A stretch of 64,000 nt of DNA from an uncultured Ectothiorhodospiraceae bacterium (GTDB taxonomy: Bacteria; Bacteroidota; Ignavibacteria; SZUA-365; GCA-2699105): NCBI GenBank assembly GCA_964408855.1, contig CAYPBB010000004.1, forward strand, positions 51,764 to 115,763. Direction: 5' to 3'. The notes under the pieces were generated by a model. That model ran no database searches, had not been told where the DNA came from, and saw nothing but the letters and a program-made list of their open reading frames with translations. The position numbers were made by a program, and so were the translations under genes. Of this stretch, positions 46,696 through 63,106 are shown in pieces; position 1 is the stretch's first letter, and every line of letters begins with the position of its first letter.

Positions 46696-46725
46696 AATAA
46701 AAATGGGCGCCCCGGAGGACGCCCA
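46696..46725 (-). terminator. rho-independent terminator of the T9SS nonaheme cytochrome gene
   Basis: Hairpin TGGGCGCCC-cgga-GGACGCCCA with an adjacent A-run on plus (U-run on the minus transcript), immediately downstream of the minus-strand stop at 46753. Confidence 0.5.
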
Positions 46726-46752
46726 CATATTGGATCGACGATGAGATGACGA

Positions 46753-48774
46753 TTACTTCGTCAGCACCATCTTCTTGGTCGCGCGGTAGTTGCCTGCTTC
46801 GATGCGGTAGAAGTACACGCCCGAAGGTGCAACATGCGTATCAGTGTTGGTGGTTCCGTTCCAGGCGACGCGGTATGTGCCGGCCTGGTAGAATCCGTCG
46901 ACAAGAACGTTCACGCGTTTACCGTTTGCGTCGTACACGGCGAGCTTCACGTTCGCTCCTTTCGGGACGGAGAACATGATTTCGGTGCTCGGGTTGAACG
47001 GATTCGGGAAGTTCTGTGCGAGGTTGTAGTTGTTCGGAACCGCGCCGCCGACAGGTTCAACGTTCACTTTCTTCATCTCGTCGATGGAGGCCTTCAATAA
47101 TGCTTCCGCATATTTGAAGTTGTGGACGCCGAAGCTGTTGTCGTTGTTCACAAAGTAGTAATTCCAATGAACGTCGATTTCAAGCTGCGTCTTCAGCGCA
47201 GTATCGGACGGGAATCGCGGTCTGCCGTCCGGACGGAGCTTCAGATAGCCCTTCAACTCGTCGAGAAGCGCCTTGATTTCGGTCTGCGTTTCTTCCATTT
47301 CCGTCAGCGTGACGCCGCTCGTGTGGCAGGTCTTGCAACCGGTGTTGTTCAGGACATCGTCGGTAGCATCGTTCGGAGTGTCGTTGTCATAGAGAACACG
47401 GAAGGTGTGACCGCCGAGTTTATTGTTATACTGCGCATCCTCTGGTTCCGCCATGTGGCATTCGGCGCATGCGTCGGCAATGTTGGTGTGAACCGAATTC
47501 GGGTAGCTGTAACCCGGGAATTCGCGACCGCCTTCGCCCTTCAGCATCGGTCCCTGGTGCGAAGCGTGGAGACCGCTCTGACCGGAAGGACGGATACTGT
47601 GGCAATCGGCGCACAACTGGTTTTTGGCTTTCCGCAACTGCGACGGATTTGCGTTGCTGTGCGGATCGTGGCAGGTGACGCAACCGACGTAGGCGGGATC
47701 CTTGTACGGCGCATTCGAGAAGGAAGTTTCCGGCGGATTGGCGCTCTTGACGAACACATCGAGATAGCCTGCGGATGTATGGCAGCGGGCGCAATCGCTG
47801 TTCACGTTGGTCTTGCTGCCGCGGTTCATGTATTCCGGAAGCTCTGGACCTTCATCCATCGAGTGGCTGTGCGCGGAGTTCTCGTATTCCAGAAGCGTAC
47901 GGTGGTAGGGCGGCGCATCGTGGCACTGCTTGCACGTCTCGCTCGATGCGGAAGAATAAATCTTGTTGTCGCCGGTCGGGCCGCCGTGGGCGCTGCCGGG
48001 GCCATGACACGATTCGCATTGAATGCCTGCGCGGTGCGCGAGCATAGGCGCGACGAGCTTTAACGAATCCCAGTTGCCGGCTTTCAATTCGGTTGGGAAC
48101 GTCCAACTGCTCGATTTTGCTAGATGAAGGAATCCATCGCCTTCCGCAGCCGGATTCGTGGAACCAGTGGTGTGGCAACCGAGGCAGTTTGAATTGAAAT
48201 GCCCGCCGACTTCATCAAGCCGGCGTTCCAATGCCGTTGCGTGCGCCGTCTGGTTCCATGTAGTTGCTACGGCGCTGTGGCACATAGCGCACTGCGGATA
48301 CGTCGCCGCGCCGCCGAGCATGGTGCCGACGCCGACATACTTGGCGACGTTGATCGCAAGCGTGTCCGTTCCGCCGTTCCCTTTGTTGTCCGTAGCGGTA
48401 AGCTGGATTTTATACGTTCCTTCCATGTCTGGAATGAAGAACGCGCGTTGCTGATCGATCATCGTGAACGCCGCGGTCGATCCTGCAGGCGCAGAGATGA
48501 ATGTGAATGTCGATGATGCCCAGGCTGTTGCGTCGCCGTTTGTAGCGTCGCGGGAGAATTTCCCGAAGACGCCCAAATAGACTTTTCCGCCTTTGGCGCA
48601 ATTCGGTAGACCGCTGAACGGCACATCGTACGCATCCGCAGGATCCGCAGCGACGAGGTTCGGCGATACGCCAAACGTACGGGCTTTCACAACAGCCGGG
48701 GTTAGCTGAGCATGGAGCGGCAGTGCGAAGCTCACCAGCACGGCTGCTACCAGAAATAGATGCAATGCCCTCAT
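46753..48774 (-). CDS. extracellular nonaheme c-type cytochrome with T9SS C-terminal sorting domain
   Basis: Signal peptide MRALHLFLVAAVLVSFALPLHAQ. Nine CxxCH motifs (CAMCH, CLGCH, CESCH, CKQCH, CARCH, CVTCH, CADCH, CAECH, CKTCH). C-terminal roughly 90 aa fits the T9SS CTD pattern (NFPNPFNPSTEI...VYDANGKRV...SGVYFYRIEAGNYRATKKMVLTK). Confidence 0.75.
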   Translation of the reverse strand: MRALHLFLVAAVLVSFALPLHAQLTPAVVKARTFGVSPNLVAADPADAYDVPFSGLPNCAKGGKVYLGVFGKFSRDATNGDATAWASSTFTFISAPAGSTAAFTMIDQQRAFFIPDMEGTYKIQLTATDNKGNGGTDTLAINVAKYVGVGTMLGGAATYPQCAMCHSAVATTWNQTAHATALERRLDEVGGHFNSNCLGCHTTGSTNPAAEGDGFLHLAKSSSWTFPTELKAGNWDSLKLVAPMLAHRAGIQCESCHGPGSAHGGPTGDNKIYSSASSETCKQCHDAPPYHRTLLEYENSAHSHSMDEGPELPEYMNRGSKTNVNSDCARCHTSAGYLDVFVKSANPPETSFSNAPYKDPAYVGCVTCHDPHSNANPSQLRKAKNQLCADCHSIRPSGQSGLHASHQGPMLKGEGGREFPGYSYPNSVHTNIADACAECHMAEPEDAQYNNKLGGHTFRVLYDNDTPNDATDDVLNNTGCKTCHTSGVTLTEMEETQTEIKALLDELKGYLKLRPDGRPRFPSDTALKTQLEIDVHWNYYFVNNDNSFGVHNFKYAEALLKASIDEMKKVNVEPVGGAVPNNYNLAQNFPNPFNPSTEIMFSVPKGANVKLAVYDANGKRVNVLVDGFYQAGTYRVAWNGTTNTDTHVAPSGVYFYRIEAGNYRATKKMVLTK

Positions 48775-49241: not shown

Positions 49242-50075
49242 TTACCAGTCGGTGCGTTCCAAACCGAAAACATTCAATTTGCCGTTCACGTGCAGGTTTT
49301 TATCGATGATATTATTGTTTGCGTCCACCGTTTGAGAATGGCAATTCGAGCATGTGGACGGGAAGCTTGCGTGCTGCTGTCCTTTTGGCTTCGGATCGCC
49401 GGTTGCCGGGTTGCCGTGGCACGACCCGCACTTCGCCTGATCGGTCCCTTTCCAGGAGACTGTTGCGTTATTTCCGCCTGTAAAGTTTCCGTGGCAGTAG
49501 GTATTTGCGCAGCCCGCACCGTCCTGTTGGAAGGAGGGAGTGCCGGAAGTACCAATCGTTACGGTGTTTGCCAGTGCGATGTTCAGCACGACTTCCGCTC
49601 CGTCCGGATTGCTGCCGCCGATGTGATTCGGATCGTCGAATCCGGTTATCGCCGGGTGGCAGTTCGTGCAGACCAAATTGAGAGAGGAACTGAGGCCCTG
49701 ATCGATATGCCTGCCGTGGGTTGCATACCAATATGGATAATTGGTCCCCCGGTCGCGTTCGCCGTGGCACGTATAACACGCTTCCGGTCCGCCGTCTTCC
49801 GCCCGGTGGCATCCCGATGTTGTACAGGAAACCTTTGCGATCCCTCCTGCATAGTCCTTTCCGTGACAGGTCGTGCAATTCTCCAGACTCCAGCCGTTCG
49901 ATCGGATCACCGTTCCGTGCCAATCGGGAGACGAGGGACTCGTCATACCCGGCGGATGGATGCCGTTCAGTGCCGGCGCAATCGGAAGATCTCCCTTATC
50001 CTTTAGCTCGCTTGAACAACCGGCAATCGCAAGCATTGCGAACGCCAGTCCTGCTAGTATTACTCGTGCGTTCAT
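49242..50075 (-). CDS. multiheme c-type cytochrome lipoprotein
   Basis: Lipoprotein signal (LAIAGCSSE). Five canonical CxxCH (CTTCH, CYTCH, CTNCH, CGSCH, CSNCH) plus two Cx4CH-like motifs (CTTSGCH, CANTYCH). 277 aa. Start overlaps the upstream gene by 4 nt. Confidence 0.7.
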   Translation of the reverse strand: MNARVILAGLAFAMLAIAGCSSELKDKGDLPIAPALNGIHPPGMTSPSSPDWHGTVIRSNGWSLENCTTCHGKDYAGGIAKVSCTTSGCHRAEDGGPEACYTCHGERDRGTNYPYWYATHGRHIDQGLSSSLNLVCTNCHPAITGFDDPNHIGGSNPDGAEVVLNIALANTVTIGTSGTPSFQQDGAGCANTYCHGNFTGGNNATVSWKGTDQAKCGSCHGNPATGDPKPKGQQHASFPSTCSNCHSQTVDANNNIIDKNLHVNGKLNVFGLERTDW

Positions 50076-51151
50076 TTGTTTTCACCTCCTGCCACTCCAG
50101 TCGAATGGCAAACCATACATACCGGATCGCCTCCGTCGACATTATGGCACGTAGCGCAGTGCTGGATATCCATCGATGCAAGGCGCGCATGACGGTTCAT
50201 CGCTTTGCCGCCCGTCGCCGAAGCAAATCCGGCAAGCTGGTGCGACTGCGGCACGATCCGTTCGCCGTTTGCGTCGTACCCGTTGGTGTGGCAATCGACG
50301 CAGAAGCTCTCCTGTTCGTGACACGTTGCGCAACGGCTCGATTGAATCCGCGCATCGAATCCGTGCGTGTATTTATACGTCAGACTATGCGCCTGTTGCG
50401 AGGTAAGCATGCCGCCGTCGTCCATTTTTTCGCCGCGAGGGTAGCTACCGATATAGAAATCTGTCTTCGTCGATGGAGCCGGCACATCATTCGTCGGTGT
50501 ATGGCATTCGGCGCAGAAGCTCTGCGAGTGGCAAACCGCGCAGTCGCGGCTGTCCTCGCCGGTGAGCGCCATCTTTCCATGGAACCTGGAGAAATCGGCC
50601 ATACGGTGATTTTTTGGAAGGAGGTTCGCAAGATTGGTATGGCACGCTTCGCATTGGTTGGTTGCCACGTTCTGCTGCATGGCGTCCGCCATCGAAACAA
50701 TCGGAGCAATTTTTTCGGCATTGTTGTGACACTCATAGCATCCGTCCATCGACGGTCCGGTAAAGCTGTCGCCGGTTTGGATATGGCAGCGGGCGCATTC
50801 AAGCTTCTGCGCGTCTGCATGGAATTTATGCGAGAAACGCAGTTCGTGAGGTCTCGGTGTACCTTTCACCTCGGCAAGATCGGTCGTTGCGTCCAATCCC
50901 CAATACTTGCGCACATCCGCTTCTTCATGGCAGCTCTGGCATGCGGAAGGGCCAGGAATGAGGTTGTCTTCCGCCGATTGGCTTTCGGCTGCCGCATGGC
51001 AGTCTGCGCAGGCGGCGAGTTCCTTGTGAATCTCATGCGAGAACATCACGCCGACCTTCGTCGCATCGGCGGCGGAAGGCGAGCTTGTCAGCGACACCAG
51101 TACTATCGCGGCTACAAGCAGTGAAGCGAAAATGGAATAGTAGTATTTCAT
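50072..51151 (-). CDS. periplasmic undecaheme c-type cytochrome
   Basis: Eleven CxxCH motifs. Signal peptide beginning MKYYYSIFASLLVAAIVLV; the ORF-track start 51196 is probably an over-extension. Confidence 0.75.
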   Translation of the reverse strand: MKYYYSIFASLLVAAIVLVSLTSSPSAADATKVGVMFSHEIHKELAACADCHAAAESQSAEDNLIPGPSACQSCHEEADVRKYWGLDATTDLAEVKGTPRPHELRFSHKFHADAQKLECARCHIQTGDSFTGPSMDGCYECHNNAEKIAPIVSMADAMQQNVATNQCEACHTNLANLLPKNHRMADFSRFHGKMALTGEDSRDCAVCHSQSFCAECHTPTNDVPAPSTKTDFYIGSYPRGEKMDDGGMLTSQQAHSLTYKYTHGFDARIQSSRCATCHEQESFCVDCHTNGYDANGERIVPQSHQLAGFASATGGKAMNRHARLASMDIQHCATCHNVDGGDPVCMVCHSTGVAGGENK

Positions 51152-52479
51152 TGCGCTTCCTCCTTGGTCGACCATCCGAGAGGATCGTTGAACCAATAGT
51201 TGATCCTGAGCAAGCCGCGCGTATCCGATTTATAAATGCGGTTGCTCATGTATTGCCCCTGCAGATCGATGGAGACGATTGGGATGGGGCGGTAGGTAAG
51301 ACCGGCAATGCCTGCCCACGCCGACGTTTTTTCGAGCTTATCGGATAGGGCGTAGTTGCTGTACACGACGCCTGCATGCGGCGTGAGTTTGTTTTCAAGA
51401 AACGGATACCGGAATTCGAAATTCAGTCCGTCGAGATCTCCATCCCAGCTCATGTCCTTTGTGTACATGATGGCGGCGTATTTATGCGATGCGCCGACGG
51501 AGAACCGGTACGCCGTCGATTCAAGACCGTCGATTTCCGGATAATCGTCGCCGGCGTTGTAGATGACCGCCGAAAAACGTCCCATCAACGTGATGCGTGG
51601 ATGAATCTTGTAGTCGATGCCGAGCACCGCCTCCTGATTCGCGCTCATCTCGAGGATGGAGAAATACGAATTCCAGGCGATAGTGGGCGCACGATGGGCG
51701 AGATTCAGAGATAGCCCCAGGTTGTCCAACGCCTGGTATGTCGCCGCAACTTCGGCGCGGGAGGCCTGCTCGAAATTGAAATCGTAATCGAATCTTACGT
51801 ACAGCCAGACGTTGTCGACAAGATAGCTGACGTTCAGACTGCCGTACTGGTTGGCGCGCGAACCGTAATCGATGGTTGTGGTCACCGCCTGACCGAGCGG
51901 ATCGAGCCGCAGGGCTTCGAACGGTGTCGATTCGCGGTGCCGGTTCATGTAACTCAATCCGAGCTTCATATTCTCGACGAGGTACAACGATACCTGCGCG
52001 CCGATCTGCCAGTTGTCTTCGAGATTGTTGAAGAAATCGGTTCTCTGCGATGGGGGAGTCAACCCGCCGCCGTAGCCCATGATTTCAACGCGGTTCGATG
52101 GACGTACGCGGATAGATGCGCCGTCTACGGTCCCGTAATTGACACCGGCATACACCGCCTGCCTTCCGAGACGGAGGTCGATCATATCTGCGACGTTCTT
52201 CACATTGATGTATGCGTTGAACAACCGCAATCTTGGATCGTGATCCATCTCGGTATCGAAATCGGTCGATGCCTGCATGTAGGTGTGGAACGAAATGTCT
52301 GCCGTTCCAAAGTTGAGTTGAATGTTCTCGTATGCTCTCAGGTGCGTTGTCGACGAGTCGGTTGAAAACGAGCGTTCCCAGCCATAGACGGTCGTCACCA
52401 GCCTGCCGTTCAGGACCTGCGCCGTCGAGACGCCTGAAAGCACGACGAGAAACAGAACAACAGTACAAACCTTTTGCAT
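51148..52479 (-). CDS. putative outer-membrane beta-barrel (porin-like) protein of a porin-cytochrome conduit
   Basis: Signal peptide MQKVCTVVLFLVVLSGVSTAQ. 443 aa, rich in Tyr/Gly/Asn with alternating hydrophobic beta-strand pattern. Flanked on both sides by multiheme cytochrome genes. Confidence 0.5.
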   Translation of the reverse strand: MQKVCTVVLFLVVLSGVSTAQVLNGRLVTTVYGWERSFSTDSSTTHLRAYENIQLNFGTADISFHTYMQASTDFDTEMDHDPRLRLFNAYINVKNVADMIDLRLGRQAVYAGVNYGTVDGASIRVRPSNRVEIMGYGGGLTPPSQRTDFFNNLEDNWQIGAQVSLYLVENMKLGLSYMNRHRESTPFEALRLDPLGQAVTTTIDYGSRANQYGSLNVSYLVDNVWLYVRFDYDFNFEQASRAEVAATYQALDNLGLSLNLAHRAPTIAWNSYFSILEMSANQEAVLGIDYKIHPRITLMGRFSAVIYNAGDDYPEIDGLESTAYRFSVGASHKYAAIMYTKDMSWDGDLDGLNFEFRYPFLENKLTPHAGVVYSNYALSDKLEKTSAWAGIAGLTYRPIPIVSIDLQGQYMSNRIYKSDTRGLLRINYWFNDPLGWSTKEEAQ

Positions 52480-52544: not shown

Positions 52545-52586
52545 GGGGTAAAAACAAAACAGGCGGACCCGCATGGGATCCGCCTG
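52545..52586 (-). terminator. putative terminator/attenuator downstream of tetraheme cytochrome gene
   Basis: Hairpin CAGGCGGA(CC)...(GGGA)TCCGCCTG with a U-run on the minus transcript (plus GGGGTAAAAACAAAAC). Confidence 0.4.
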
Positions 52587-52599
52587 CGGTCTAGATTGA

Positions 52600-53267: not shown

Positions 53268-55538
53268 TTACGACTGAGGATGTTCCTTCGCGCCGTTCAC
53301 GCTTTCTTCGTCGTCGGTGATGATTGTCACATCACCGGCTTTCGCCTTCAGGCGCTCGAGTTCAAGTGGATGCTCTTCGAGCATTTCATGCTCGGTGAGG
53401 GTACCCTTGAACCAGGCGACATTCATCGGATATACGTCTGGGTTGAAGATGATAAAGTAAAAATGCCAGACGATGATAGCAAGCGTTGCGAGCCATGCTT
53501 CGTAAAAATGGATGATGGTCATGATATCGAGGAATTCCTTCGAGGTCATCGCTCCGAAAAACTCATGGAACCACAGCATCAGACCCGTCGCGCCCATCAC
53601 GATCGTGCCCCAGATCAACGCCCAGTATTCGGCTTTCTCCATATAACTGAATCTGTCGAACCTCGGCCGGTCGCCGGTTCTGCCGAGGTACCACTTGAAT
53701 GCCTGAAGCGCATCTTTCACATCTTTCCAGATAGGCAGCATATCCTTGATGAACTGTCTGCCGCGTTTGGTGGCGACCATGTACCAGATGTGATACAGCG
53801 ACGCAGCGAGCATGACGGCTCCGGCAATTCTGTGAAGAACGCCGCGCAGTTCAAACGCCGGTTCGCCGAGAATCTCGCGGATGTATACCACCCACCATGC
53901 ATTGGGGTAGGTCAATCCAAAGCCGGTGAATACGAGCAGAATGAAACTCAGTGCGAGCGTCGCGTGCTGGATTCGCTCGCTCAGCGTCATTCTCAGATAT
54001 AGATTGTGGGCAACCTCGTGCTGGTGACCTCTACGGCGGGCTTTCAGCTTTTCGAGCGCCTTCTTCCTGAAATCAAGCAGATTGTGGAAGAGCATCCCGC
54101 CGATTGTCAGTACGATGAGCAGGATGTAGATCGTCGTGATCGTGTATTGAATTCCGGATTCCTTCTCGGTGCGGACAACATGGATCGGACCTTTTGTAAA
54201 GCTCTCGGAGGCGTTCGGATGGCACTTCCCGCATGTTTGTTTCAAATTGGAGGGATGAATGCTCGACGTTGAATCGCTCGATGGTTTAATGCTATGCGCG
54301 CCGTGGCAGCTCGCGCAATTCGCTGCGACTTTCGATCCGCCCTGAACGGCGAGCCCGTGATAGCTGTCGAGATAGCTTTCTCCGGGATTCGCGACGATAC
54401 CGTATTTGTCTGCCATGCGCACCGAGTTGTGGCAGGGAAGACACACCTTCTCCGGAAGGTTGCGGCTGTTTACCGGCGATTGCTTTGAATCGACGGCAAG
54501 AATGCCGTGTTCTCCGTGGCAATCGGTACAAGATGGCGCATCGCGGACGCCGCGCGCAAGCGCCGAACCATGGATGCTCTCGTTGAATTCCGTTTTGATG
54601 GCATCGTGACATTTCCCGCATGTAGTCGGAATTTTCAGCTTGTTCACTTTCGAGTCCGCGACAGACCCGGGCGCTACTTCGTGCGCTCCGTGGCAATCGA
54701 TGCAGTTTGCAGCATCAGCATTACCGCGGTGCAGCGACATCCCGTGGATGCTATGCTCATACGCATCGATGAAACCGGCGCTTGTCGCCATGCGCGATTT
54801 CACATCGTCGTCGTTTTGATGGCATGAAAGGCAGAGTTTTTCCTGCGCAATCTTCAGGTCCAGCTTGCTCAGTCCGCTGCTGGGCGTGATCGATTTGGAG
54901 TGGCACGAAATACATGTCGGCGCGCCTTTGACATTGGCGGCGACTGCTTTCCCGTGCCACGATGCGTTGAATGTCGCGACCTCGGCGCTGTGGCATGTGC
55001 CGCACGACTTGTTCAGATTTGCGCTGGAAAATGGAGAAGCCGGGTTTTTCGGAGCGACGACATTATGTGTTCCGTGGCACTCCTTGCACGCCGATTGCAA
55101 ACGTCCGGCAGTCTTAGCGGCATTCAGCATTGAGGCGTGGAATTTGTGCGTCTGCAGCGCGTCTTTATGGCAGCTTGTACACTGCACCGGAGTGATTTTC
55201 TCTTTATGCGGCACATCGTCGGGATTGAATCCGACATGACAAGAGATACAACTCAGCTTGCTATGAGGAGAGGCTTTCAGAATCTTCGGATTGGTGTAGA
55301 GCGAAACCTCTCTCCCGTTTTTCTCCATCGTCAAATCTTTATCGTTATGGCAAGCCTGACAATCGGCGACCGATTGGGCGATACTTTGTCCGCTGAATAT
55401 CAGCAGTACCGCCGCAGACAGGAATGCCAGAAGCTGGGTCCTTTTCATCGAAGTATACCTGCTTTCGGAGCAAATCTGGCGTTTGTTAAATTCAACGTGC
55501 TTCCTTTCTGGTGTAGTATTCATGGGTTTGCGCGGCAT
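53268..55538 (-). CDS. CbcL-like fusion: periplasmic multiheme (13 CxxCH) c-type cytochrome domain plus C-terminal membrane di-heme cytochrome b (HydC/FdnI-type) domain
   Basis: Signal/anchor. Thirteen CxxCH motifs in the N-terminal roughly 430 aa. C-terminal roughly 300 aa carries 4-5 TM helices with conserved His (HNLLDF, HRIAGAV, HFYEAW, WHFYFI), as in Ni/Fe-hydrogenase / formate-dehydrogenase b-type cytochrome subunits. Confidence 0.7.
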   Translation of the reverse strand: MPRKPMNTTPERKHVEFNKRQICSESRYTSMKRTQLLAFLSAAVLLIFSGQSIAQSVADCQACHNDKDLTMEKNGREVSLYTNPKILKASPHSKLSCISCHVGFNPDDVPHKEKITPVQCTSCHKDALQTHKFHASMLNAAKTAGRLQSACKECHGTHNVVAPKNPASPFSSANLNKSCGTCHSAEVATFNASWHGKAVAANVKGAPTCISCHSKSITPSSGLSKLDLKIAQEKLCLSCHQNDDDVKSRMATSAGFIDAYEHSIHGMSLHRGNADAANCIDCHGAHEVAPGSVADSKVNKLKIPTTCGKCHDAIKTEFNESIHGSALARGVRDAPSCTDCHGEHGILAVDSKQSPVNSRNLPEKVCLPCHNSVRMADKYGIVANPGESYLDSYHGLAVQGGSKVAANCASCHGAHSIKPSSDSTSSIHPSNLKQTCGKCHPNASESFTKGPIHVVRTEKESGIQYTITTIYILLIVLTIGGMLFHNLLDFRKKALEKLKARRRGHQHEVAHNLYLRMTLSERIQHATLALSFILLVFTGFGLTYPNAWWVVYIREILGEPAFELRGVLHRIAGAVMLAASLYHIWYMVATKRGRQFIKDMLPIWKDVKDALQAFKWYLGRTGDRPRFDRFSYMEKAEYWALIWGTIVMGATGLMLWFHEFFGAMTSKEFLDIMTIIHFYEAWLATLAIIVWHFYFIIFNPDVYPMNVAWFKGTLTEHEMLEEHPLELERLKAKAGDVTIITDDEESVNGAKEHPQS

Positions 55539-55589: not shown

Positions 55590-57080
55590 TCAGTTCCCGA
55601 GATGGCAATCGGAACAATTCGCGGTTTTCCATGCATCGTCGATATCCGACGGATGGTTGAACTCCATTCCGTCGAGGCTGCTTACAGGACTTGTCGCCGG
55701 TCCCTGTCTAATTATTGCATGGCAGACCGAACAGTCGTTCGATATGACCTTGCCGTCTTCCGAAACGTGCTTGTTATCGTGGCAGCGGAAACAGCCGATA
55801 TTGTACATATGCCCGATGTTGTTTGGATAGGCTTTCCAATTGACCTTCATTTCGGCGAAGAAATTCCTCGAATAAATTCTCATTATCTCCGTGATCGCGC
55901 GCTCTACATCCTGGGAGCGGGTTTTCAGGATTTCCGGAGCGCGTTCGCGGTATTCGCCGCGGATGATGTCGGGAATCTCCAAACGAGCCTGTGTTGACGT
56001 CGCGAACTCGCGGGTCATTGCATACGAAGCGATGCCTCTGATACCCGGGAGCGTAGGATCGATCTTGCCGTTCGCCATAGCGTCGTTGATTGTCCGGAAC
56101 GGCGGATAGTAGATATGAGAAGGACGGTTATGGCAGTCGATGCAATCCATTTTGCGCTTCTCGTATTTCCCGATTTCCTTCCCGGAAATCTCATGGTCCT
56201 TCGAACGGAATATCCGTACTTCGCCTTTCAGGTTCTTGCTCATGACCCAGGGGATGACCTGGCGTTTATCGTCGGACGCGATATAGGTTATTTCCTGTTC
56301 GGTATTCATATGCCAATGGATGCCTTCCGTAGGACCCAATTCGCTCTGTCCGCCGCCGATTTTAAGATCCATTTCGATGATCCACGGCACGGTTCCTGTT
56401 GTATCGATCGGGAAGTACACCTTCTTCAATTTCTTTTCGGCGGTGAATTTGCTGGGCCAGTGGCATTCCTCGCACGTTTCGCGCGCCGGACGCAGGTTGT
56501 GGACGGGCGTTTCGATTGGCCGGTGATACTTATCGAAGATGACCGAGTACACCTGGTACATACCGCTGATCTTGGCTTTGACGAACCAATCAGCGCCGGT
56601 GCCGATATGGCACTCGGCGCAGGCGACGCGGGCATGCGGGGAATGCTGGTACGCAGTATACTCGGGGTTCATGACCTCATGGCATACTTCGCCGCAGAAC
56701 TCAACCGATTCGGAATAGGTGTAGGTCTGATACATACCTGCCGCGGAGATAACGATCAGGAACATCGTTCCCACAGTGAAGATCATCACCGCCATGCGAT
56801 GGCGGGGCAGATTCAGATCGAGGTGGATGTACCGGCGCGGTTCGCCGTGGCGTTTCCGCCGCCGGCGCCGTTCCCAAAGAATACCGATAGGGATGAGGAA
56901 GAGTCCGGCAAACATGATTCCCGGAAGAATCATATACGTGAAGATCCCGAGATAGGGCGAACTGGTAAAGCCAAGCACATCCATCATGAAGAACACGAAG
57001 ATGCTGCCCAGAGTCAGGAGGGTGATTCCTACTCCGGCAAGGCTAATCGGATTGTAGACGATATCCGGCAATCTTCTCAT
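55590..57080 (-). CDS. ImcH-like inner-membrane multiheme c-type cytochrome (NapC/NirT-like quinol dehydrogenase family)
   Basis: Two or three N-terminal TM helices. Six CxxCH (CAECH, CEECH, CIDCH, CFRCH, CSVCH, CSDCH) plus one Cx3CH (CGEVCH). 496 aa. Confidence 0.6.
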   Translation of the reverse strand: MRRLPDIVYNPISLAGVGITLLTLGSIFVFFMMDVLGFTSSPYLGIFTYMILPGIMFAGLFLIPIGILWERRRRRKRHGEPRRYIHLDLNLPRHRMAVMIFTVGTMFLIVISAAGMYQTYTYSESVEFCGEVCHEVMNPEYTAYQHSPHARVACAECHIGTGADWFVKAKISGMYQVYSVIFDKYHRPIETPVHNLRPARETCEECHWPSKFTAEKKLKKVYFPIDTTGTVPWIIEMDLKIGGGQSELGPTEGIHWHMNTEQEITYIASDDKRQVIPWVMSKNLKGEVRIFRSKDHEISGKEIGKYEKRKMDCIDCHNRPSHIYYPPFRTINDAMANGKIDPTLPGIRGIASYAMTREFATSTQARLEIPDIIRGEYRERAPEILKTRSQDVERAITEIMRIYSRNFFAEMKVNWKAYPNNIGHMYNIGCFRCHDNKHVSEDGKVISNDCSVCHAIIRQGPATSPVSSLDGMEFNHPSDIDDAWKTANCSDCHLGN

Positions 57081-57378: not shown

Positions 57379-57933
57379 TTACGCTTGAGCGGTCTTCAAG
57401 TCATCGATACGCGATTGAACTACGCCTTCGCATTCGCGGCAATAGTACGCCTCCTTCAGGTCGATGTCTTCTACATACGTGGACGCATTCATCGCGCATC
57501 CTGGATTGATGCAATGGCGCAATCCGAACGTATGCCCAAGTTCGTGGACTGCTTCCTTCAGCGAGCGCTGGTAAAGCATGTGCGGCGATGGCTGCAGCCC
57601 GTAGAACTCGTTGTGGAGCCGGAACGTGGAAAACACGGAAGCGCGGTTATCGACCTGCGCCTGTCCGAACAGAAACGTCAGCACGGGCAGGAATAAATCG
57701 TAGCTCGTCACGCCGAGTATTTTCGAAACGCCCGCAGGCGCATGTTCGAGAAGCATTGCCAGGATACGCGCGGAATGATATTGCCTTCGCGATGAATCAT
57801 GCGCATCGTGTATAGGTAGCGCCAGATTCACCGGTTCTACAGGGAGATGGTAGACCAACGCCAGATCGGTGCAGAACTCCTGCAAGGGAAGCGGCGTATT
57901 CAGGGCTATCGGTACCACGTGTATCTTAACCAT
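57379..57933 (-). CDS. archaemetzincin-like zinc metalloprotease
   Basis: HELGHTFGLRHC motif followed by CxxC (CAMNASTYVEDIDLKEAYYCRECE), characteristic of the archaemetzincin (AmzA) family. 184 aa. Confidence 0.65.
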   Translation of the reverse strand: MVKIHVVPIALNTPLPLQEFCTDLALVYHLPVEPVNLALPIHDAHDSSRRQYHSARILAMLLEHAPAGVSKILGVTSYDLFLPVLTFLFGQAQVDNRASVFSTFRLHNEFYGLQPSPHMLYQRSLKEAVHELGHTFGLRHCINPGCAMNASTYVEDIDLKEAYYCRECEGVVQSRIDDLKTAQA

Positions 57934-57943
57934 TCAGATCGCA

Positions 57944-59305
57944 TTAATCGGGGCGTTTAAGGCCGTATTTTTCGATTTTATTGTACAAGGTTACCCGGTC
58001 GATTCCGAGCCGGTCGGCGCTGCGGGTAATATTCCAATTCAGATCGTCGAGCGTTTTCATGATATGGAAGCGTTCCATGTCCGCAAGCGACTCGCTAGCG
58101 CTTTGGTTGCCTGCCGAGGAAAGCTGCATCGGAAGATGTTTCAACCGTATCGCTTCGTCGCCGCAAACGACCATGGCGCGTTCGATAGCGTTCTCCAACT
58201 CACGCACGTTGCCGGGCCATGGGTATCCAACCATCGACTCGATCGCTTCGGGAGTGATATTCCGGGACTGTTTATTCATTCTGGTTGCGTACTTTTTCAC
58301 GAAGTGCGCAGCGAGTATGGGAATGTCGCTCCTCCGGTCGCGCAGTGGGGGAACGTGAATCGCGAATACGTTAATTCTATAGTAGAGGTCTTCCCGAAAC
58401 GTACCTTCTTTCACCGCTTTTTCCAAGTCCATATTCGTCGCGCATACCAGTCTGAAGTCGACATGGATTTGTTTCTCGCCGCCGACTCGTTGAAACTGTT
58501 TGCTTTCCAGGACGCGCAGCAAATCGACTTGGGATTTCAGACTGAGCGTTCCGATTTCATCCAGAAACAGCGTTCCGCCGTTCGCCATCTCGAAGCTGCC
58601 TTTCCGGCGGTACTGCGCGCCGGTAAATGCGCCTTTCTCGTGACCAAACAGCTCGCTCTCGATAAGCGAATCAGCAAGGGCGCCGCAGTTCACCGGTATG
58701 ATCGGGAAATACTTCCGTTCGCTGTTCGAATGAATCGCTTTAGCGATCAGCTCTTTCCCGGTCCCGCTCTCGCCAAGAATCAGTACGGTAGAATCGGTGG
58801 GCGCAACCGTGCGTATCAACTCGAACACCGATTGCATTCCTGTGCTTTCGCCGATGAAATCCTCGACGTTGTGCAGCGTTTCAATCCGTTCCTTGAGCTG
58901 CACGTTTTCCTTTTTCAGCATCCGCTGATGCGCGGCGTTCCGAACCATCACCGTTAGCTCATCCGGATCCACCGGCTTCGTCACGTAATCGAAGGCGCCG
59001 GCTTTCAGCGCTCTGACAGCCGAATCCACCGCGGCGAATGCCGTGATGATGATGATGACAATCTCGCCGTCGAATTCCCTGATTCGGTCCTGCAGCGCAA
59101 GTCCGTCCATACCGGGCATCTTGATATCGAGAAGAATGATGTCGATCGTGGACTTCTGGATCAGATTCAGCGCGTCGGCGGCGTTTTCGGCAGTGCTGAC
59201 CTGATATCCTTCGTCGAGGAACCATTCGCAAAGCGACTCGCGAACGGATAGTTCGTCGTCGACGATAAGGATATGGATGGATGCGCGGTCGAGTGTTTGG
59301 TTCAT
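57944..59305 (-). CDS. sigma-54-dependent response regulator (NtrC/Fis family: REC + AAA+ sigma54-interaction + HTH)
   Basis: REC domain ([18 protein letters not shown]). Walker [15 protein letters not shown] sigma54-contact motif. C-terminal Fis-type HTH. Confidence 0.85.
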
Positions 59306-59359: not shown

Positions 59360-61090
59360 TTACGATCCCTCCTGTGGACCGTCGGCTGGGAGGAGGACAC
59401 GGAATGCCGTTCCTTTCCCCAATTCGCTCATTACTTTAATATCGCCTTTGTGCCGCTTGACGATGCCGTAGACGATAGAGAGACCGAGACCTGTGCCGTG
59501 TCCGACTTCTTTTGTCGTTACGAAAGGTTCGAACAAACGCGGCAGGAGCGTTTCATCGATACCGCTGCCGTTGTCCTTGACGGTGATCTCGGCGATGGAA
59601 TGTTGGATCTCCGCGCTGATGCGGATCGTCCCTCCGTCCTGCATCGCCTCGATGCTGTTGACAACAAGCGCGATGATCATTTGCTGTATCTGATTGGCGT
59701 CGCAGACAATGGTTGTCTCCTCGCTTCTGAAATCCTGCACCAGCCGCACCATCTGCATATCGGCTTTGTGTTGAATCAGCCGCACACATTTATCGATCGT
59801 ATCCCTCAAATCGGTTTTTGTATACGAGGCCGAGTCGCTTCTGGCGAAGAACAGGAGGTTCTTCACGATATCGCCGCAGCGCTTCGCTTCGTCGGCAATG
59901 AGCGTGGAATCCTTCATGATTTTTTCGATCATTTCGGGCGTAAGTTCCATTCGGGACATTCTGCTCCTGATCAGCCGCGCATACGTAAGTATACCCGAGA
60001 GGGGATTGTTCAACTCGTGCGCGATCATCGAACTCAACTGCCCGAGCGACGCCATTTTTTCGATATGGACGACCTGCGCCTGCACCTCCTGAAGTTCGCG
60101 CGTTTTTTCTTCCACTTTCTGTTCGAGCGTGTTGGACCATTCGACAAGCTCTGCCTTTGCCGCCTTGATATCCGACGCCATTTCGTTGAACGAACGGTTT
60201 AGCATCCCAAGCTCGTTCTTTGTATCGACCGCGAGCTTGTAATCGAGGTTGCCTGCGGAGATAGCCTTTGTTCCATCGATCAGTTTCTGAACGGGGCGGT
60301 GGACGAATGAAACAATGAAGAATCCTGCGACACTGCCGACCGCGAGAAGCGAAATGAGCGCGCTTATTATGAGCATGTTGCGGCTCTTGTCGGTGTATTC
60401 GTCGACCATTTCCATGGAAAGCTGCACATCGAGAACGCCGAGGATCGTTTGGTCGGGGGTATGAACATGACAGCTTTGGTAGCACTCGCGTTCGTTCTGA
60501 ATCGGATTGATCAGTCCGAGCACCCGGTGTCCCGAAGCGGCCTCGTATACGCGCAAATACTGATCGGTCTTGGTTTTATTAAATCCGTCGCCCGAGCCGT
60601 GGCACATGGTGCAGGCGTCGGCGTCGACATCGACCACGCGACCGATTTCCGTGCTATCGGAGCTATACCGGATTACTCCGGCTTTGTCGTACACCCGGAT
60701 GCGTTCGGTACCCTTGGTCTTTCCCAGATCCATGATAGTGAATGCAATGGATTCGATGTCGTTGTGCTGCATGCCATAGCGCAACGACCGCTTGGTCATT
60801 TCCGAAGTGCGCTCGGCGCAACCTTCAACGGCCTTCGAAAAGTACCGCATTTCGGAGGTAACATTATAATAGGTAGTAATGGACAGTACCAGTACCAGAG
60901 CCAGTACAAGGAGGATGATTATTTTGAAACTCAGCGACTGATACAGTTTCATCGTTCCGTCCATAATAAAGGACATTCCCGTCTGTAAAGTAGTAAAGAA
61001 AAGCGCCTTTTTCAAGGCGCTGTAAAAAAAATCAACAACATTATTGCATGCCGTAATAAATACGCTGAAAATCCCTATGTTTTTCGCCAC
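59360..61090 (-). CDS. sensor histidine kinase with periplasmic domain carrying c-type heme-binding motifs
   Basis: TM, roughly 170 aa periplasmic segment, second TM, HAMP-like linker, coiled coil, HisKA (H-box IAHELNNPL), HATPase (G-boxes). The periplasmic segment contains CTMCH (CxxCH) and CYQSCH (Cx3CH). True start may be an internal Met near 60952. 16-nt overlap with the upstream gene. Confidence 0.8.
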   Translation of the reverse strand: MAKNIGIFSVFITACNNVVDFFYSALKKALFFTTLQTGMSFIMDGTMKLYQSLSFKIIILLVLALVLVLSITTYYNVTSEMRYFSKAVEGCAERTSEMTKRSLRYGMQHNDIESIAFTIMDLGKTKGTERIRVYDKAGVIRYSSDSTEIGRVVDVDADACTMCHGSGDGFNKTKTDQYLRVYEAASGHRVLGLINPIQNERECYQSCHVHTPDQTILGVLDVQLSMEMVDEYTDKSRNMLIISALISLLAVGSVAGFFIVSFVHRPVQKLIDGTKAISAGNLDYKLAVDTKNELGMLNRSFNEMASDIKAAKAELVEWSNTLEQKVEEKTRELQEVQAQVVHIEKMASLGQLSSMIAHELNNPLSGILTYARLIRSRMSRMELTPEMIEKIMKDSTLIADEAKRCGDIVKNLLFFARSDSASYTKTDLRDTIDKCVRLIQHKADMQMVRLVQDFRSEETTIVCDANQIQQMIIALVVNSIEAMQDGGTIRISAEIQHSIAEITVKDNGSGIDETLLPRLFEPFVTTKEVGHGTGLGLSIVYGIVKRHKGDIKVMSELGKGTAFRVLLPADGPQEGS

Positions 61091-61866
61091 GCGTTGAGTT
61101 TTTCAACGATGAATTGTTGATACGAGTCATCGCCGAATGCCATTTCAAGGTCTTCGACCGGCTGACCTCCGTCGTTGAGACAGATCCCTGGAAGTGGAGG
61201 CTGAAGCAATGCCTGTGCCGCCGAATCCATGAACTCGGTCATCATTGATTGTATGTGGCGTTCTGCCTCGTCGACTGAAGCGAGCGGAGAGTGCTCTCCT
61301 GCGGTTTCGTCGCTTTTTATTACAGCCAGCCAGCCGCGCTCATATGGCGATGTGCGGATATCGTTCGTCACTTTCCCGAACGATCCATTGCGTCTTACGA
61401 TAGAACCCCGGAACGGCGATAATAATGGAACGGTACATCCGCCAAGGTAAATCCACCCGAATGGGTTTTCCATTTCGGTATCGCTTTCGGCTGCGAGCGT
61501 GATGATATCGGCATTCTTCGGGAGGATGCGCAGAAGATAGGCATCGATCCCGACGCGGAAATATCCGCCAGGAAGCTGCTGTACCCACAATTGACCGGGC
61601 GTGTAACGATACTCGGTATGCAAGGATACGGAGGAATACGGTTTCAGCAGCGTCGCCACTTCTTCGGGTATTTCGGCCGCGATAGGCACGCGTACCGAAC
61701 GAAGCATATCTTCCGCGCGTCCCGCCGCTCTCGGAAATTCGCGCTGCAGAACGCTGTCCAGCGGGCAGTGTTCGCAATCGAAGTTTCTGTCGCAGCGTTT
61801 GTAGGATAGCACGCCGGCATTCATCCATACGCAGCAGTCGTTGCATTTTTCAAATCTTACCAGCAT
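61075..61866 (-). CDS. GcvH-like (glycine-cleavage H fold) protein lacking the lipoyl-lysine, with N-terminal Cys-rich motif
   Basis: N-terminal C..CC...C..C..C cluster (CNDCCVWMNAGVLSYKRCDRNFDCEHCP). Central and C-terminal segments align to the GcvH pattern (VGIDAY...; SPYERGWLAVIKS), but no SVKA lipoylation motif. Confidence 0.45.
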   Translation of the reverse strand: MLVRFEKCNDCCVWMNAGVLSYKRCDRNFDCEHCPLDSVLQREFPRAAGRAEDMLRSVRVPIAAEIPEEVATLLKPYSSVSLHTEYRYTPGQLWVQQLPGGYFRVGIDAYLLRILPKNADIITLAAESDTEMENPFGWIYLGGCTVPLLSPFRGSIVRRNGSFGKVTNDIRTSPYERGWLAVIKSDETAGEHSPLASVDEAERHIQSMMTEFMDSAAQALLQPPLPGICLNDGGQPVEDLEMAFGDDSYQQFIVEKLNAWRKT

Positions 61867-61911
61867 TGTGTCCTCCCAGTAGTAGGTACTGGAATTATTG
61901 AGTTACGCATG

Positions 61912-63096
61912 TTATGCCTGTGCCGGTTCGGATTCCATCGCTCTCACGGATCCGATTTCGATGATGATTTCCTCGTCGGCATGTTCTTCCGGGAAGATGG
62001 GCAGGTATTGAACGGCTTTCGAGAAAATGAAGAAGCCGAATGTAACGATGCCTCCGGTGATCATGATTTCCTCGAACGAGGGGAAGTAGACGCCCCCATA
62101 GTACGAGTCGAGCGAGGTGGTGGTGACGTTGAGCCGGTTCGCGACAAATCCGAGCACGACCGATATAGAGATGAAGAACAACCCAAGACGGGTTCTGCGG
62201 AACTGCTTCATCGCATATAGCGCGACCGGGAGAACGACGAATAAACCAAGCTCGAGCAGCAGCATGTTGGATTCAAGCGTTCCGTTGAAGAGCGTGCCCA
62301 GCAGTCCTTTGCCGCCGAGATCGAGCAGGCGCATCGTGGTATAGACGAGCAACACGGCAATCATGATGCGCGCGAGATTGAATAACAGCGGCGTTTCGAG
62401 CGTGCGCTTGAATGCCCGCGAACTGAAGTACGATTCGACGATCGTCATTCCGATACCCACGGCAACAGCCGAGACGAAGAAGAACACCGGCAGCATCGGC
62501 GAGTACCAGAACGGATGCATCTTTTGCGGAATGATCAGGTACAGACTGCCCAGCGACGATTGATGAAGCATGGACAGCAGGATGCCCGCGATGACAAGCG
62601 GAATGGTGATTGCCTTGACGATCTTCAATGTCCGCGTGAGTTTAAAACGTTCCAGCACGACGGGACTGAATTCCAGCGCCAGCACCGTTGAATAGAGCAT
62701 CACGCACCATGCGACCTCGAACATAACGGAGTGGGGATTCCACATAATGATGGCATGCCAGATCGCCCAGGGACGTCCAAGATCGAACATCAATCCGGCA
62801 ATCACGAGCGTGTAACCGAGAAAGGCAGTCAGCACCGTAGGACGGACAATTGGTTTGAATTGCTTTATGTTGAAAATGTAGACGATGGCGCACAGTGTGA
62901 AGCCCCCGGCTGCGAGTCCTACACCGGTAACCACATCGAATCCGATCCACAAACCCCAGGGAGTGGCATCGGAAAGGTGGGTGGTGGCCCCCAGTCCGTA
63001 GACGAACCGCCGGAACGTCACGATCGCAGCGCCGACGATGAAAAACATACCGACAACGCGCCAGAAGGTAATCTTGGGAATAGCGAAACGTTTCAT
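61912..63096 (-). CDS. NrfD/PsrC-family integral membrane quinone-interacting subunit
   Basis: 394 aa, about 10 TM helices. N-terminal pattern (PWGLWIGFDVVTGVGLAAGGF) typical of NrfD/PsrC/HmcC-type subunits. Confidence 0.8.
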   Translation of the reverse strand: MKRFAIPKITFWRVVGMFFIVGAAIVTFRRFVYGLGATTHLSDATPWGLWIGFDVVTGVGLAAGGFTLCAIVYIFNIKQFKPIVRPTVLTAFLGYTLVIAGLMFDLGRPWAIWHAIIMWNPHSVMFEVAWCVMLYSTVLALEFSPVVLERFKLTRTLKIVKAITIPLVIAGILLSMLHQSSLGSLYLIIPQKMHPFWYSPMLPVFFFVSAVAVGIGMTIVESYFSSRAFKRTLETPLLFNLARIMIAVLLVYTTMRLLDLGGKGLLGTLFNGTLESNMLLLELGLFVVLPVALYAMKQFRRTRLGLFFISISVVLGFVANRLNVTTTSLDSYYGGVYFPSFEEIMITGGIVTFGFFIFSKAVQYLPIFPEEHADEEIIIEIGSVRAMESEPAQA

Positions 63097-63106
63097 GGCA
63101 TCCTCC

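What the first reader, a model, noticed from the sequence alone, without database searches (positions are those of the whole stretch)
53268..55538. Single polypeptide fusing 13 c-type hemes to a di-heme cytochrome b membrane domain
The N-terminal roughly 430 aa carries 13 CxxCH motifs. The C-terminal roughly 300 aa is a HydC/FdnI-type cytochrome b with conserved His ligands in TM helices. This CbcL-like architecture would pass quinol-derived electrons directly into a long periplasmic heme wire. At 13 hemes it is larger than the 9-heme Geobacter CbcL. It sits directly downstream of an ImcH-like gene, so both Geobacter-type inner-membrane EET entry points are adjacent here.
Basis: partly seen in the sequence, partly recalled or inferred. 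Interest (0 to 1): 0.55.

Follow-up and report, generated by a model that had tools for sequence, protein, structure and literature searches.

The report
CbcL-like 13-haem bc cytochrome
This gene encodes one membrane protein that joins a two-haem cytochrome b to a 13-haem periplasmic chain, a common but unstudied sister form of Geobacter's CbcL that most likely moves electrons from the quinone pool towards the cell surface.

Summary
The ORF lies on the minus strand (53268-55538, 756 aa; probable true start M31 at 55448). It has 13 CxxCH motifs and 13 further invariant His, then five TM helices.

The last four helices are an FdnI/HydC-type cytochrome b. Pfam PF01292 gives E=9e-19, and the Foldseek top hit is FdnI (TM-score 0.77). 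All four FdnI haem ligands align. The positive-inside rule puts the c domain in the periplasm.

The upstream gene fits the ImcH pattern: 3 TM helices, one CX3CH and six CX2CH.

The protein is not an orthologue of the published CbcL/MtrH/MtoC group. That group has a sixth TM helix and often sits in the same clusters of related genomes. This protein is 28-30% identical to it over about 700 aa and forms a separate clade.

The 13-haem, 5-TM subfamily is abundant: at least 588 species genomes, mostly Ignavibacteria and Bacteroidota MAGs. An ImcH-like gene lies within 10 kb in 74% of informative loci.

A 2018 survey already reports such fusions with 3-23 haems in 15 phyla. The find is therefore an undescribed variant of a known kind. 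The direction of electron flow is inferred, not shown.

The parts
53268..55538 (-). Whole ORF, 756 aa, a fused c/b-type cytochrome. The probable true start is M31 (nt 55448), giving 726 aa.
   Evidence: Homologues begin near M31 and the first 30 aa are not conserved.
55374..55448 (-). Signal peptide, aa 31-55 (MKRTQLLAFLSAAVLLIFSGQSIAQ|S).
   Evidence: Hydropathy and reading of the sequence. No dedicated predictor was run.
54159..55373 (-). Periplasmic multihaem c domain, aa 56-460, with 13 CxxCH and 13 invariant distal His.
   Evidence: (Cytochrome_C7, Cytochrom_c3_2, Paired_CXXCH_1).
54069..54158 (-). TM0, aa 461-490. This linker helix returns the chain to the cytoplasm and carries the conserved His485.
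53439..53993 (-). FdnI/HydC-type di-haem cytochrome b domain, aa 516-700 (TM I-IV). Haem ligands are H525, H569, H677 and H692, with an extra His at 583. The RFSYxEKxEYW motif lies at the cytoplasmic start of TM III.
53268..53438 (-). Hydrophilic cytoplasmic tail, aa 701-756, plus the stop codon. There is no sixth TM helix. The conserved EEHP motif aligns with the FdnI C-terminal helix.
55590..57080 (-). ImcH-like inner-membrane cytochrome, 496 aa, with 3 TM helices, CX3CH plus 6 CX2CH, and a NapC/NirT/NrfH-like region.
   Evidence: The fingerprint matches Table S3 of PMC6295460.
52600..53160 (-). 186-aa periplasmic tetrahaem cytochrome (c554-like), a candidate electron acceptor.
   Evidence: It co-occurs in 21 of 50 loci.
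52559..52587 (-). Terminator-like hairpin (12 pairs plus a T-run) just after the c554-like gene. It may mark the end of an ImcH/CbcL-like/c554 transcription unit.
   Evidence: This is a consensus match only, and the count in the region was not above the shuffles.
51148..52479 (-). 443-aa secreted protein with no family match, a candidate outer-membrane porin of a porin-cytochrome conduit.
   Evidence: no hits. It co-occurs in 19 of 50 loci. The porin role is inferred from position only.
50072..51151 (-). Cytochrome of about 359 aa with 11 CxxCH.
49242..50075 (-). 277-aa putative lipoprotein cytochrome with 5 CxxCH and 2 CxxxxCH.
46753..48774 (-). 673-aa cytochrome with 9 CxxCH and a C-terminal type IX secretion sorting domain.
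57944..59305 (-). Sigma-54-dependent response regulator (receiver + AAA+ + HTH_8).
   Evidence: A similar gene lies within 10 kb in 20 of 50 loci.
59360..61090 (-). Sensor histidine kinase (HAMP, HisKA, HATPase_c).

Best explanation
The gene encodes an inner-membrane bc-type quinol:cytochrome c oxidoreductase of the CbcL superfamily.

Shown by sequence and fold:
- A Sec signal peptide exports a 405-residue domain that carries 13 bis-His c-type haems.
- One helix (TM0) brings the chain back across the membrane.
- Four further helices form an FdnI-type bundle with the four canonical His ligands. These would hold one b haem near the periplasmic face (H569/H677) and one near the cytoplasmic face (H525/H692).

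Inferred from FdnI and from what has been proposed for Geobacter CbcL:
- Menaquinol is oxidised at a site on the cytoplasmic side. This is the region of the invariant E634-K635 motif, H692 and H583.
- Its protons are released to the cytoplasm.
- The electrons cross the membrane through the two b haems and run along the 13-haem chain to periplasmic cytochromes.
- From there they pass to the porin-cytochrome-like proteins and the secreted cytochrome encoded downstream, and on to an extracellular acceptor.
- Such a route yields little or no proton-motive force but can work at low acceptor potential.

The ImcH-like quinol oxidase encoded next to it would be the higher-yield exit.
For: Cofactors:
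- 13 CxxCH plus 13 invariant non-motif His in the c domain indicate all bis-His haems with no open catalytic haem.

Cytochrome b domain:
- PF01292 E=9e-19.
- The profile matches FdnI over almost its full length, with all four ligands aligned.
- The AF2 model has pLDDT 84.6. Its only significant PDB match is FdnI (E=9e-5, TM-score 0.77 over 224 columns), followed by the hydrogenase-1 cytochrome b.

Topology:
- Positive-inside rule.

Homology to published relatives:
- 28-30% identity over about 700 aa, with E from 1e-61 to 1e-97, to proteins whose haem-position fingerprints equal the published CbcL/MtrH/MtoC homologues OGU58019.1 and WP_069963319.1.

Context:
- An ImcH-like gene, a tetrahaem cytochrome, three more multihaem cytochromes and a candidate porin lie on the same strand.
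- The neighbourhood recurs in related genomes.

Mechanism and energetics of CbcL come from the bioRxiv preprints 10.1101/2022.08.31.506072 and 10.1101/2021.04.15.440034.
Against: - Nothing here shows the direction of electron flow, the quinone used, or that the acceptor is extracellular.
- The published survey notes that CbcL/MtrH/MtoC homologues occur in both Fe(III) reducers and Fe(II) oxidisers (PMC6295460).
- The protein lacks the sixth TM helix of CbcL. It is only about 28% identical to the published group in the b domain, so function cannot simply be transferred.
- No direct comparison with G. sulfurreducens GSU0274 was possible.
- The quinone-site assignment rests on my recollection of the FdnI-HQNO structure (Jormakka et al. 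2002), which I could not confirm in the paper library.
- The porin assignment of the 443-aa protein is positional only.
Confidence: 0.65

Rival explanations
1. Same protein, opposite direction. It accepts electrons from periplasmic cytochromes and reduces menaquinone at the cytoplasmic side, as FdnI does. The donors could be fed by extracellular sources or by periplasmic hydrogenase or formate dehydrogenase. Together with the ImcH-like quinol oxidase acting at the periplasmic side, it would form a proton-motive redox loop, comparable to MtoC or Qrc.
For: - The b domain is built like FdnI, whose physiological direction is quinone reduction.
- CbcL/MtrH/MtoC homologues occur in Fe(II) oxidisers, and the survey found no sequence feature that separates the two directions (PMC6295460).
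- The tight operon-like pairing with ImcH would make sense for a loop.
Against: - Reduction of menaquinone needs low-potential donors, and no hydrogenase or formate dehydrogenase genes lie in the cluster.
- The position aligned with FdnI Gln113 is Glu in 133 of 150 representatives. This would suit proton abstraction from a quinol, but the argument is weak.
- The downstream genes look like an outward conduit, including a secreted cytochrome.
Confidence: 0.2
2. It is a quinol dehydrogenase for a periplasmic, not extracellular, respiratory reductase. In that case the neighbouring cytochromes serve soluble acceptors such as nitrite, arsenate or selenate, or sulfur compounds.
For: - An NrfC/NrfD-like pair lies upstream on the same strand.
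- ImcH-like and NrfH-like proteins share a fold.
- Ignavibacteria include arsenate and nitrate reducers (PMC7399161).
Against: - No catalytic reductase gene is present between 46.7 and 61 kb.
- All 13 haems have a conserved sixth ligand.
- The cluster contains a putative lipoprotein cytochrome and a type-IX-secreted cytochrome, which point beyond the periplasm.
Confidence: 0.1
3. The membrane domain holds a third b haem, or alternates between haem-ligation states, using the two extra conserved His (H485 on TM0 and H583 on TM II). This would act as a redox-potential gate.
For: - Six TM His are conserved in both the 5-TM and the 6-TM subfamilies.
- The TM0 His is kept even when TM0 sits on a separate cytochrome subunit.
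- Five candidate ligands, and the idea of alternative configurations, were already noted for Geobacter CbcL (10.1101/2021.04.15.440034).
Against: - Among 150 representatives, H485 is replaced by Tyr, Phe, Leu, Ile or Trp in 17 and H583 by Gln, Asn, Ile, Tyr or Phe in 12.
- Among the representatives with both positions aligned, the two are never lost together. They therefore do not behave as an obligate ligand pair.
- No coordinates were available to measure distances.
Confidence: 0.1

Closest known systems
Geobacter sulfurreducens CbcL (GSU0274) and the published CbcL/MtrH/MtoC homologues (Zacharoff et al. 2016; Zhong & Shi 2018, PMC6295460)
   Same: - One polypeptide with an N-terminal periplasmic multihaem c domain, a linker TM helix bearing a His, and an FdnI/HydC-type di-haem b domain.
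- The spacing of the last four haems (29, 42, 28 here; 28, 43, 28 in GSU0274) and the distance from the last haem to TM0 are nearly the same.
- Whole-length homology to fingerprint-identified members (28-30% identity).
   Different: - 13 haems instead of 9. The published range is 3-23, but no 13-haem entry is listed in Table S2.
- Five rather than six TM helices after the haem domain, because the C-terminal helix is missing.
- A second His on TM II (H583) that Joshi et al. do not describe for GSU0274. They describe one His on that helix. The 6-TM relatives in these loci do have it.
- A separate clade in a b-domain tree.
- It co-occurs with the 6-TM type in the same clusters (24 of 50 loci), so the two are paralogues.
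- Usually linked to imcH, whereas Geobacter imcH is monocistronic (PMC4251993).
E. coli formate dehydrogenase-N gamma subunit FdnI (PDB 1KQF chain C) and hydrogenase-1 cytochrome b HyaC
   Same: Four-helix fold, four His ligands on helices I, II and IV, N- and C-termini in the cytoplasm, and a conserved HP motif in the C-terminal helix.
   Different: - 17-18% identity.
- TIGR01583 scores 57 bits against a cut-off of 116.
- No FdnG/FdnH or hydrogenase genes are nearby.
- The FeS subunit with its TM anchor is replaced by a fused multihaem domain plus TM0.
- One extra residue lies between the two His of helix IV.
- Glu stands in place of the residue aligned with FdnI Gln113.
Geobacter CbcBA (GSU0593-0594)
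   Same: - A b-type di-haem quinone oxidoreductase working with a multihaem c cytochrome that is anchored by a C-terminal TM helix contributing a His.
- Controlled by a sigma-54-dependent response regulator, BccR.
- The related loci here contain an analogous split form: a 19-haem cytochrome with a C-terminal GxHTLL helix plus a separate b subunit.
- A sigma-54 regulator lies upstream in the window.
   Different: - CbcB is reported to share no sequence homology with CbcL.
- The protein here is fused, not split.
- No -24/-12 promoter match was found in the window.
ImcH (GSU3259), for the neighbouring gene only
   Same: Three N-terminal TM helices, CX3CH next to the membrane, six CX2CH, a NapC/NirT-like region and 496 aa. 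Haem positions are within 2 residues of the Ignavibacteria ImcH homologues in Table S3.
   Different: It is encoded in an operon-like cluster with the bc cytochrome instead of alone.

Membership tests
CbcL / MtrH / MtoC fused bc cytochromes | N-terminal periplasmic domain with multiple CxxCH haem c sites | tested here: met
   13 CxxCH at aa 60-436. 13 extra invariant His. Signal peptide and positive-inside topology.
CbcL / MtrH / MtoC fused bc cytochromes | C-terminal HydC/FdnI-like di-haem cytochrome b domain with conserved His ligands | tested here: met
   PF01292 E=9e-19. FdnI ligands H18, H57, H155 and H169 align with H525, H569, H677 and H692. Foldseek matches 1kqf_C with TM-score 0.77.
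CbcL / MtrH / MtoC fused bc cytochromes | Six TM helices after the haem domain, with a C-terminal sixth helix (131 of 136 entries in Table S2) | tested here: not met
   Only five TM helices, and the 56-aa tail is hydrophilic. In alignment, the 6-TM relatives carry a hydrophobic tail of about 44 aa that this protein lacks.
CbcL / MtrH / MtoC fused bc cytochromes | His on the linker helix (first TM after the haem domain), noted for GSU0274 | tested here: met
   H485 is at least 90% conserved in 113 homologues and present in 98 of 115 representatives. It aligns with the GxHTLL motif of the 6-TM type. Described for CbcL.
CbcL / MtrH / MtoC fused bc cytochromes | Sequence relatedness to accepted members (survey range 28.6-100% identity) | tested here: inconclusive
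   28-30% identity over about 700 aa to proteins that match Table S2 entries by haem fingerprint. However, this protein forms a separate monophyletic group with 28% b-domain identity between groups. GSU0274 itself could not be retrieved, so there was no direct alignment.
CbcL / MtrH / MtoC fused bc cytochromes | Menaquinol oxidation needed for acceptors below about -0.1 V | not testable with these tools
   This is a genetic and electrochemical phenotype (PMC5322298).
Formate dehydrogenase gamma subunit (TIGR01583 / FdnI equivalog) | Score above the curated cut-off and association with FdnG/FdnH | tested here: not met
   56.9 bits against a cut-off of 115.85. No molybdopterin or FdnH genes between 44 and 64 kb.
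Cytochrome b/b6 of bc1/b6f complexes (the name NCBI gives the homologues) | bc1-type fold with two His pairs on helices B and D | tested here: not met
   The sequence pattern of two His pairs exists (H569/H583, H677/H692). However, the b6 match is at chance level (E=0.54) and Foldseek matches to bc1 cytochrome b are poor (E>=3.6, probability 0.2-0.28). H583 is replaceable.
ImcH (neighbouring gene 55590-57080) | Three N-terminal TM helices, one CX3CH next to the membrane, six CX2CH, and NapC/NirT homology | tested here: met
   Criteria are from PMC6295460 section 11 and PMC4251993.

The most novel reading that the evidence does not exclude
The two extra conserved membrane His (H485 on the linker helix and H583 on TM II) may let the b domain bind a third cofactor or switch haem ligation with redox state. 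The conserved ImcH plus bc-cytochrome operon, often with a third 6-TM paralogue, would then be a self-contained, potential-sensing set of exits from the quinone pool. It would have evolved outside the Desulfuromonadales and spread across Ignavibacteria, Bacteroidota, Verrucomicrobia, Acidobacteriota and Calditrichota.
Probability: 0.1. Interest if true: 0.6.

Novelty: new variant of a known kind. Interest (0 to 1): 0.35.

Why it matters
How electrons leave the quinone pool during extracellular respiration has been worked out genetically almost only in Geobacter (ImcH, CbcL, CbcBA) and Shewanella (CymA).

This window shows that a sister form of CbcL is very common in uncultured Ignavibacteria, Bacteroidota and several other phyla. 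It has five TM helices and typically 13 haems, and it is usually encoded beside an ImcH homologue. Databases call it only 'cytochrome b/b6 domain-containing protein' or 'formate dehydrogenase gamma subunit'.

Recognising it would improve gene-based prediction of metal and electrode respiration in metagenomes. It also offers a natural variant, lacking the sixth helix and carrying an extra His, for testing ideas on how CbcL is gated by potential.

It does not change the known picture of how such proteins work.

Tried and rejected
- Single-sequence phmmer of the whole protein and of the C-terminal 298 aa against the PDB did not find FdnI. Only a profile did.
- The first AF2 model, built from 13 sequences, was too poor to use (pLDDT 65.6). 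It was replaced by a 113-sequence model.
- Foldseek against AFDB50 was meant to pull out Geobacter CbcL, but the library was not installed.
- tblastn against plasmids, in the hope of finding an annotated CbcL/MtoC, gave only three marginal partial matches.
- The exhaustive representative search returned only 5-TM relatives in its best 150, so it did not reach GSU0274-type proteins. P0175 has 9 haems and a Geobacter-like haem spacing, but it also lacks the sixth helix.
- A sigma-54 -24/-12 consensus search found no more matches than chance and none in the relevant intergenic regions.
- Sigma-70 promoter and terminator counts were not above the shuffles.
- The third-haem idea was tested by looking for correlated loss of H485 and H583, and it was weakened.
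- Literature searches for the FdnI quinone-site residues and for type-IX-secreted multihaem cytochromes found nothing usable. A 2026 peat preprint on conserved multihaem machinery does not mention CbcL or ImcH.
Full report
**Observation**

The coordinates 53268-55538 hold one uninterrupted ORF of 756 codons, on the minus strand. It contains 13 CxxCH motifs between residues 60 and 440. Of its 27 cysteines, 26 lie in those motifs. The remaining one, C23, lies upstream of M31. From the protein's own composition about 0.05 such motifs would be expected by chance.

M31 opens a typical signal peptide (MKRTQLLAFLSAAVLLIFSGQSIAQ|S). Homologues start there and the first 30 residues are not conserved, so M31 (nt 55448) is the likely start.

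After the last haem motif come five hydrophobic helices: 461-490, 523-545, 569-590, 639-658 and 672-700. A 56-residue acidic tail follows.

**The membrane domain**

- Pfam Ni_hydr_CYTB matches residues 516-700 (E=9.2e-19).
- NCBIfam's formate dehydrogenase gamma model scores 57 bits, well under its cut-off of 116. This is not a formate dehydrogenase subunit.
- A profile of the C-terminal region finds E. coli FdnI (1kqf_C) over nearly its whole length.
- The FdnI haem ligands H18, H57, H155 and H169 align with H525, H569, H677 and H692, with one extra residue between the last two.
- These four His are invariant in 113 close homologues. In 150 representatives of 50%-identity clusters they are 140/142, 147/147, 150/150 and 150/150 conserved.
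- An AlphaFold2 model built on 113 sequences (pLDDT 84.6) has FdnI as its only significant PDB match (E=9e-5, TM-score 0.77, rmsd 3.7 Å over 224 columns). The cytochrome b of E. coli hydrogenase-1 comes next.

Lys+Arg counts are 10 and 12 in the loops predicted to be cytoplasmic, against 2 and 1 in the periplasmic ones. This topology puts the c domain in the periplasm, which haem c attachment requires.

**The c domain**

Besides the 13 motifs, exactly 13 further His are invariant in this domain. That is enough for bis-His ligation of every haem, as was shown spectroscopically for the nine haems of CbcL (PMC9129911). There is no sign of an open catalytic haem. The domain looks like an electron-transfer chain.

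**Surroundings, all on the minus strand**

- A histidine kinase and a sigma-54-dependent response regulator.
- A small M54 peptidase.
- A 496-aa protein with three TM helices, CX3CH at residue 129 and six CX2CH. This is the published definition of ImcH. Its haem positions lie within two residues of the Ignavibacteria ImcH homologues in Table S3 of PMC6295460.
- The ORF under study.
- A tetrahaem c554-like cytochrome, followed by a terminator-like hairpin.
- A 443-aa secreted protein without any family match.
- An 11-haem cytochrome.
- A 277-aa putative lipoprotein cytochrome.
- A 9-haem cytochrome with a type IX secretion sorting domain.

The sorting domain and the homologue names point to an Ignavibacteria/Bacteroidota-type organism. 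The best species-level relative is only 59% identical.

**Relatives**

The family is large.
- Among 8000 word-sharing candidates, 7866 proteins scored E<=0.001. The best 120 are all 48-69% identical (one, P0001, is identical) and mostly 705-780 aa long.
- Of those 120, 113 have exactly 13 CxxCH. Five have 18, four of these with an additional CxxxxCH motif (about 860-900 aa), and two have 12.
- At least 588 species-representative genomes carry a relative. The best 80 are all MAGs of Ignavibacteria/Bacteroidota, Opitutaceae and other Verrucomicrobia, Acidobacteriota, Calditrichota and Rhodothermales.
- An exhaustive HMMER search with the membrane domain finds 2727 clusters at E<=0.001.
- Its best 150 show the same five-helix domain fused to 1 to 19 haems, with 11 the most common, or standing alone.

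**Relation to CbcL**

Table S2 of Zhong & Shi 2018 lists GSU0274 with nine haems and six TM helices after the haem domain. Its 136 homologues have 3-23 haems, none is listed with 13, and nearly all have six helices.

I could not retrieve GSU0274 itself. However, the fetched loci contain a second type of protein with a hydrophobic C-terminal sixth helix. Their haem positions coincide with survey entries. L045 matches Ignavibacteria OGU58019.1 within one residue, and L051 matches Lacunisphaera WP_069963319.1 shifted by one residue.

The window protein is 28-30% identical to these proteins over about 700 residues, covering both domains (E from 1e-61 to 1e-97). In a neighbour-joining tree of the b domain rooted on FdnI, the 5-TM and 6-TM groups are each monophyletic. 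Identity is 57-61% within groups and 28% between them.

In 24 of 50 informative loci both types lie in the same cluster, the 6-TM type either fused or split. The split form is a 19-haem cytochrome with a C-terminal helix plus a separate b subunit. The window protein therefore belongs to a paralogous sister subfamily of the published CbcL/MtrH/MtoC group. It has the same architecture but is not an orthologue.

**Extra histidines**

Two more membrane His are conserved: H485 on the linker helix and H583 on TM II, 14 residues after H569.
- Both are also present in the 6-TM type.
- The linker His is kept (GxHTLL) even when that helix belongs to a separate cytochrome subunit.
- Joshi et al. noted five candidate ligands in Geobacter CbcL and speculated about alternative haem-binding configurations.

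Among 150 representatives, H485 is replaced in 17 (Tyr, Phe, Leu, Ile or Trp) and H583 in 12 (Gln, Asn, Ile, Tyr or Phe). Among those with both positions aligned, the two are never lost together. This argues against an obligate third bis-His haem. It favours auxiliary roles, for example at the quinone site or towards haem propionates.

The segment that aligns with the FdnI residues I recall as lining the HQNO site (N110, Q113; Jormakka et al. 2002, from memory and not confirmed) is the almost invariant RFSYxEKxEYW. Glu634 is present in 133 of 150 representatives and Lys635 in 149 of 150.

**Neighbourhood conservation**

Among 50 species-representative loci with at least 6 kb on both sides:
- An ImcH-like gene lies within 10 kb in 37 (74%).
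- It is directly adjacent (<400 nt) in 18.
- It is mostly downstream on the same strand. In the window and its closest relatives L004, L006 and L007 it is upstream.
- The c554-like gene recurs in 21, the 443-aa protein in 19 and a sigma-54 regulator in 20.

It contrasts with Geobacter, where imcH is monocistronic.

**Mechanism**

Shown here: the cofactor-binding motifs, the fold, the topology and the gene context.

Inferred, by analogy with FdnI and with the proposal for CbcL:
- The quinone site lies on the cytoplasmic side.
- Quinol protons are released inside the cell.
- Electrons cross the membrane outward through the two b haems into the 13-haem chain, and then to the cytochromes encoded downstream.
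- This is a low-yield route suited to low-potential acceptors, complementing ImcH.

The opposite direction (quinone reduction, as in MtoC or Qrc) cannot be excluded from sequence.

**Verdict**

The protein is an ordinary-looking member of an abundant, unstudied sister subfamily of CbcL. A 13-haem count is not exceptional within a family already known to span 3-23 haems in 15 phyla.

Noticed in passing
window 46753-48774 (-): A 673-aa protein has a signal peptide, 9 CxxCH, an MtrC/MtrF domain II/IV-like region and a C-terminal type IX secretion (Por_Secre_tail) sorting domain. It appears to be a multihaem cytochrome exported by the T9SS. The same gene occurs in L001, L004 and 3 of 50 representative loci. 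Full-text searches found no paper linking T9SS and multihaem cytochromes.
   Followed up: partly
L041 10001-16425 (also L045, L046 and others): Related genomes carry up to three putative quinol oxidases in tandem: the 13-haem 5-TM type, a 19-haem 6-TM CbcL-type (or a split 19-haem cytochrome plus a separate b subunit), and an ImcH-like gene.
   Followed up: partly
window 61075-63862 (-), running towards the window end: An NrfC-like 4Fe-4S protein, an NrfD/PsrC-like membrane protein and a GCV_H-like protein lie upstream of the two-component system. L004 729-4264 has the same genes, with GCV_H-like genes on both sides. This is another quinone-interacting module of unknown partner.
   Followed up: no
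window 57379-57933 (-): A peptidase M54 (archaemetzincin-like) gene sits between the sigma-54 regulator and the ImcH-like gene. It is in the same position in L004.
   Followed up: no
window 51148-52479 (-): A 443-aa secreted protein has no Pfam or NCBIfam match. It lies between the tetrahaem and the 11-haem cytochrome genes and recurs in 19 of 50 related loci. It is a candidate porin of a porin-cytochrome conduit, but this was not tested.
   Followed up: no
window ORF residues 485 and 583 (nt 54084-54086 and 53790-53792): Two membrane His beyond the four FdnI ligands are conserved in both the 5-TM and the 6-TM subfamilies. The TM0 His is kept on a separate subunit in split systems. Their role is unexplained, and independent loss argues against a shared third haem.
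   Followed up: yes
window 52559-52587 (-) and 46703-46726 (-): Strong terminator-like hairpins lie directly after the c554-like gene and after the T9SS cytochrome gene. They suggest two transcription units, although hairpin counts in the region were not above the shuffles.
   Followed up: no
P0121-P0270: Within the 5-TM subfamily the haem domain is modular. Representatives carry 1, 2, 3, 4, 5, 6, 7, 8, 9, 10, 11, 13, 15, 16, 17, 18 or 19 CxxCH. In the multihaem forms the last four motifs usually keep about the same spacing (roughly 29, 42, 28). Some standalone b subunits also exist.
   Followed up: partly
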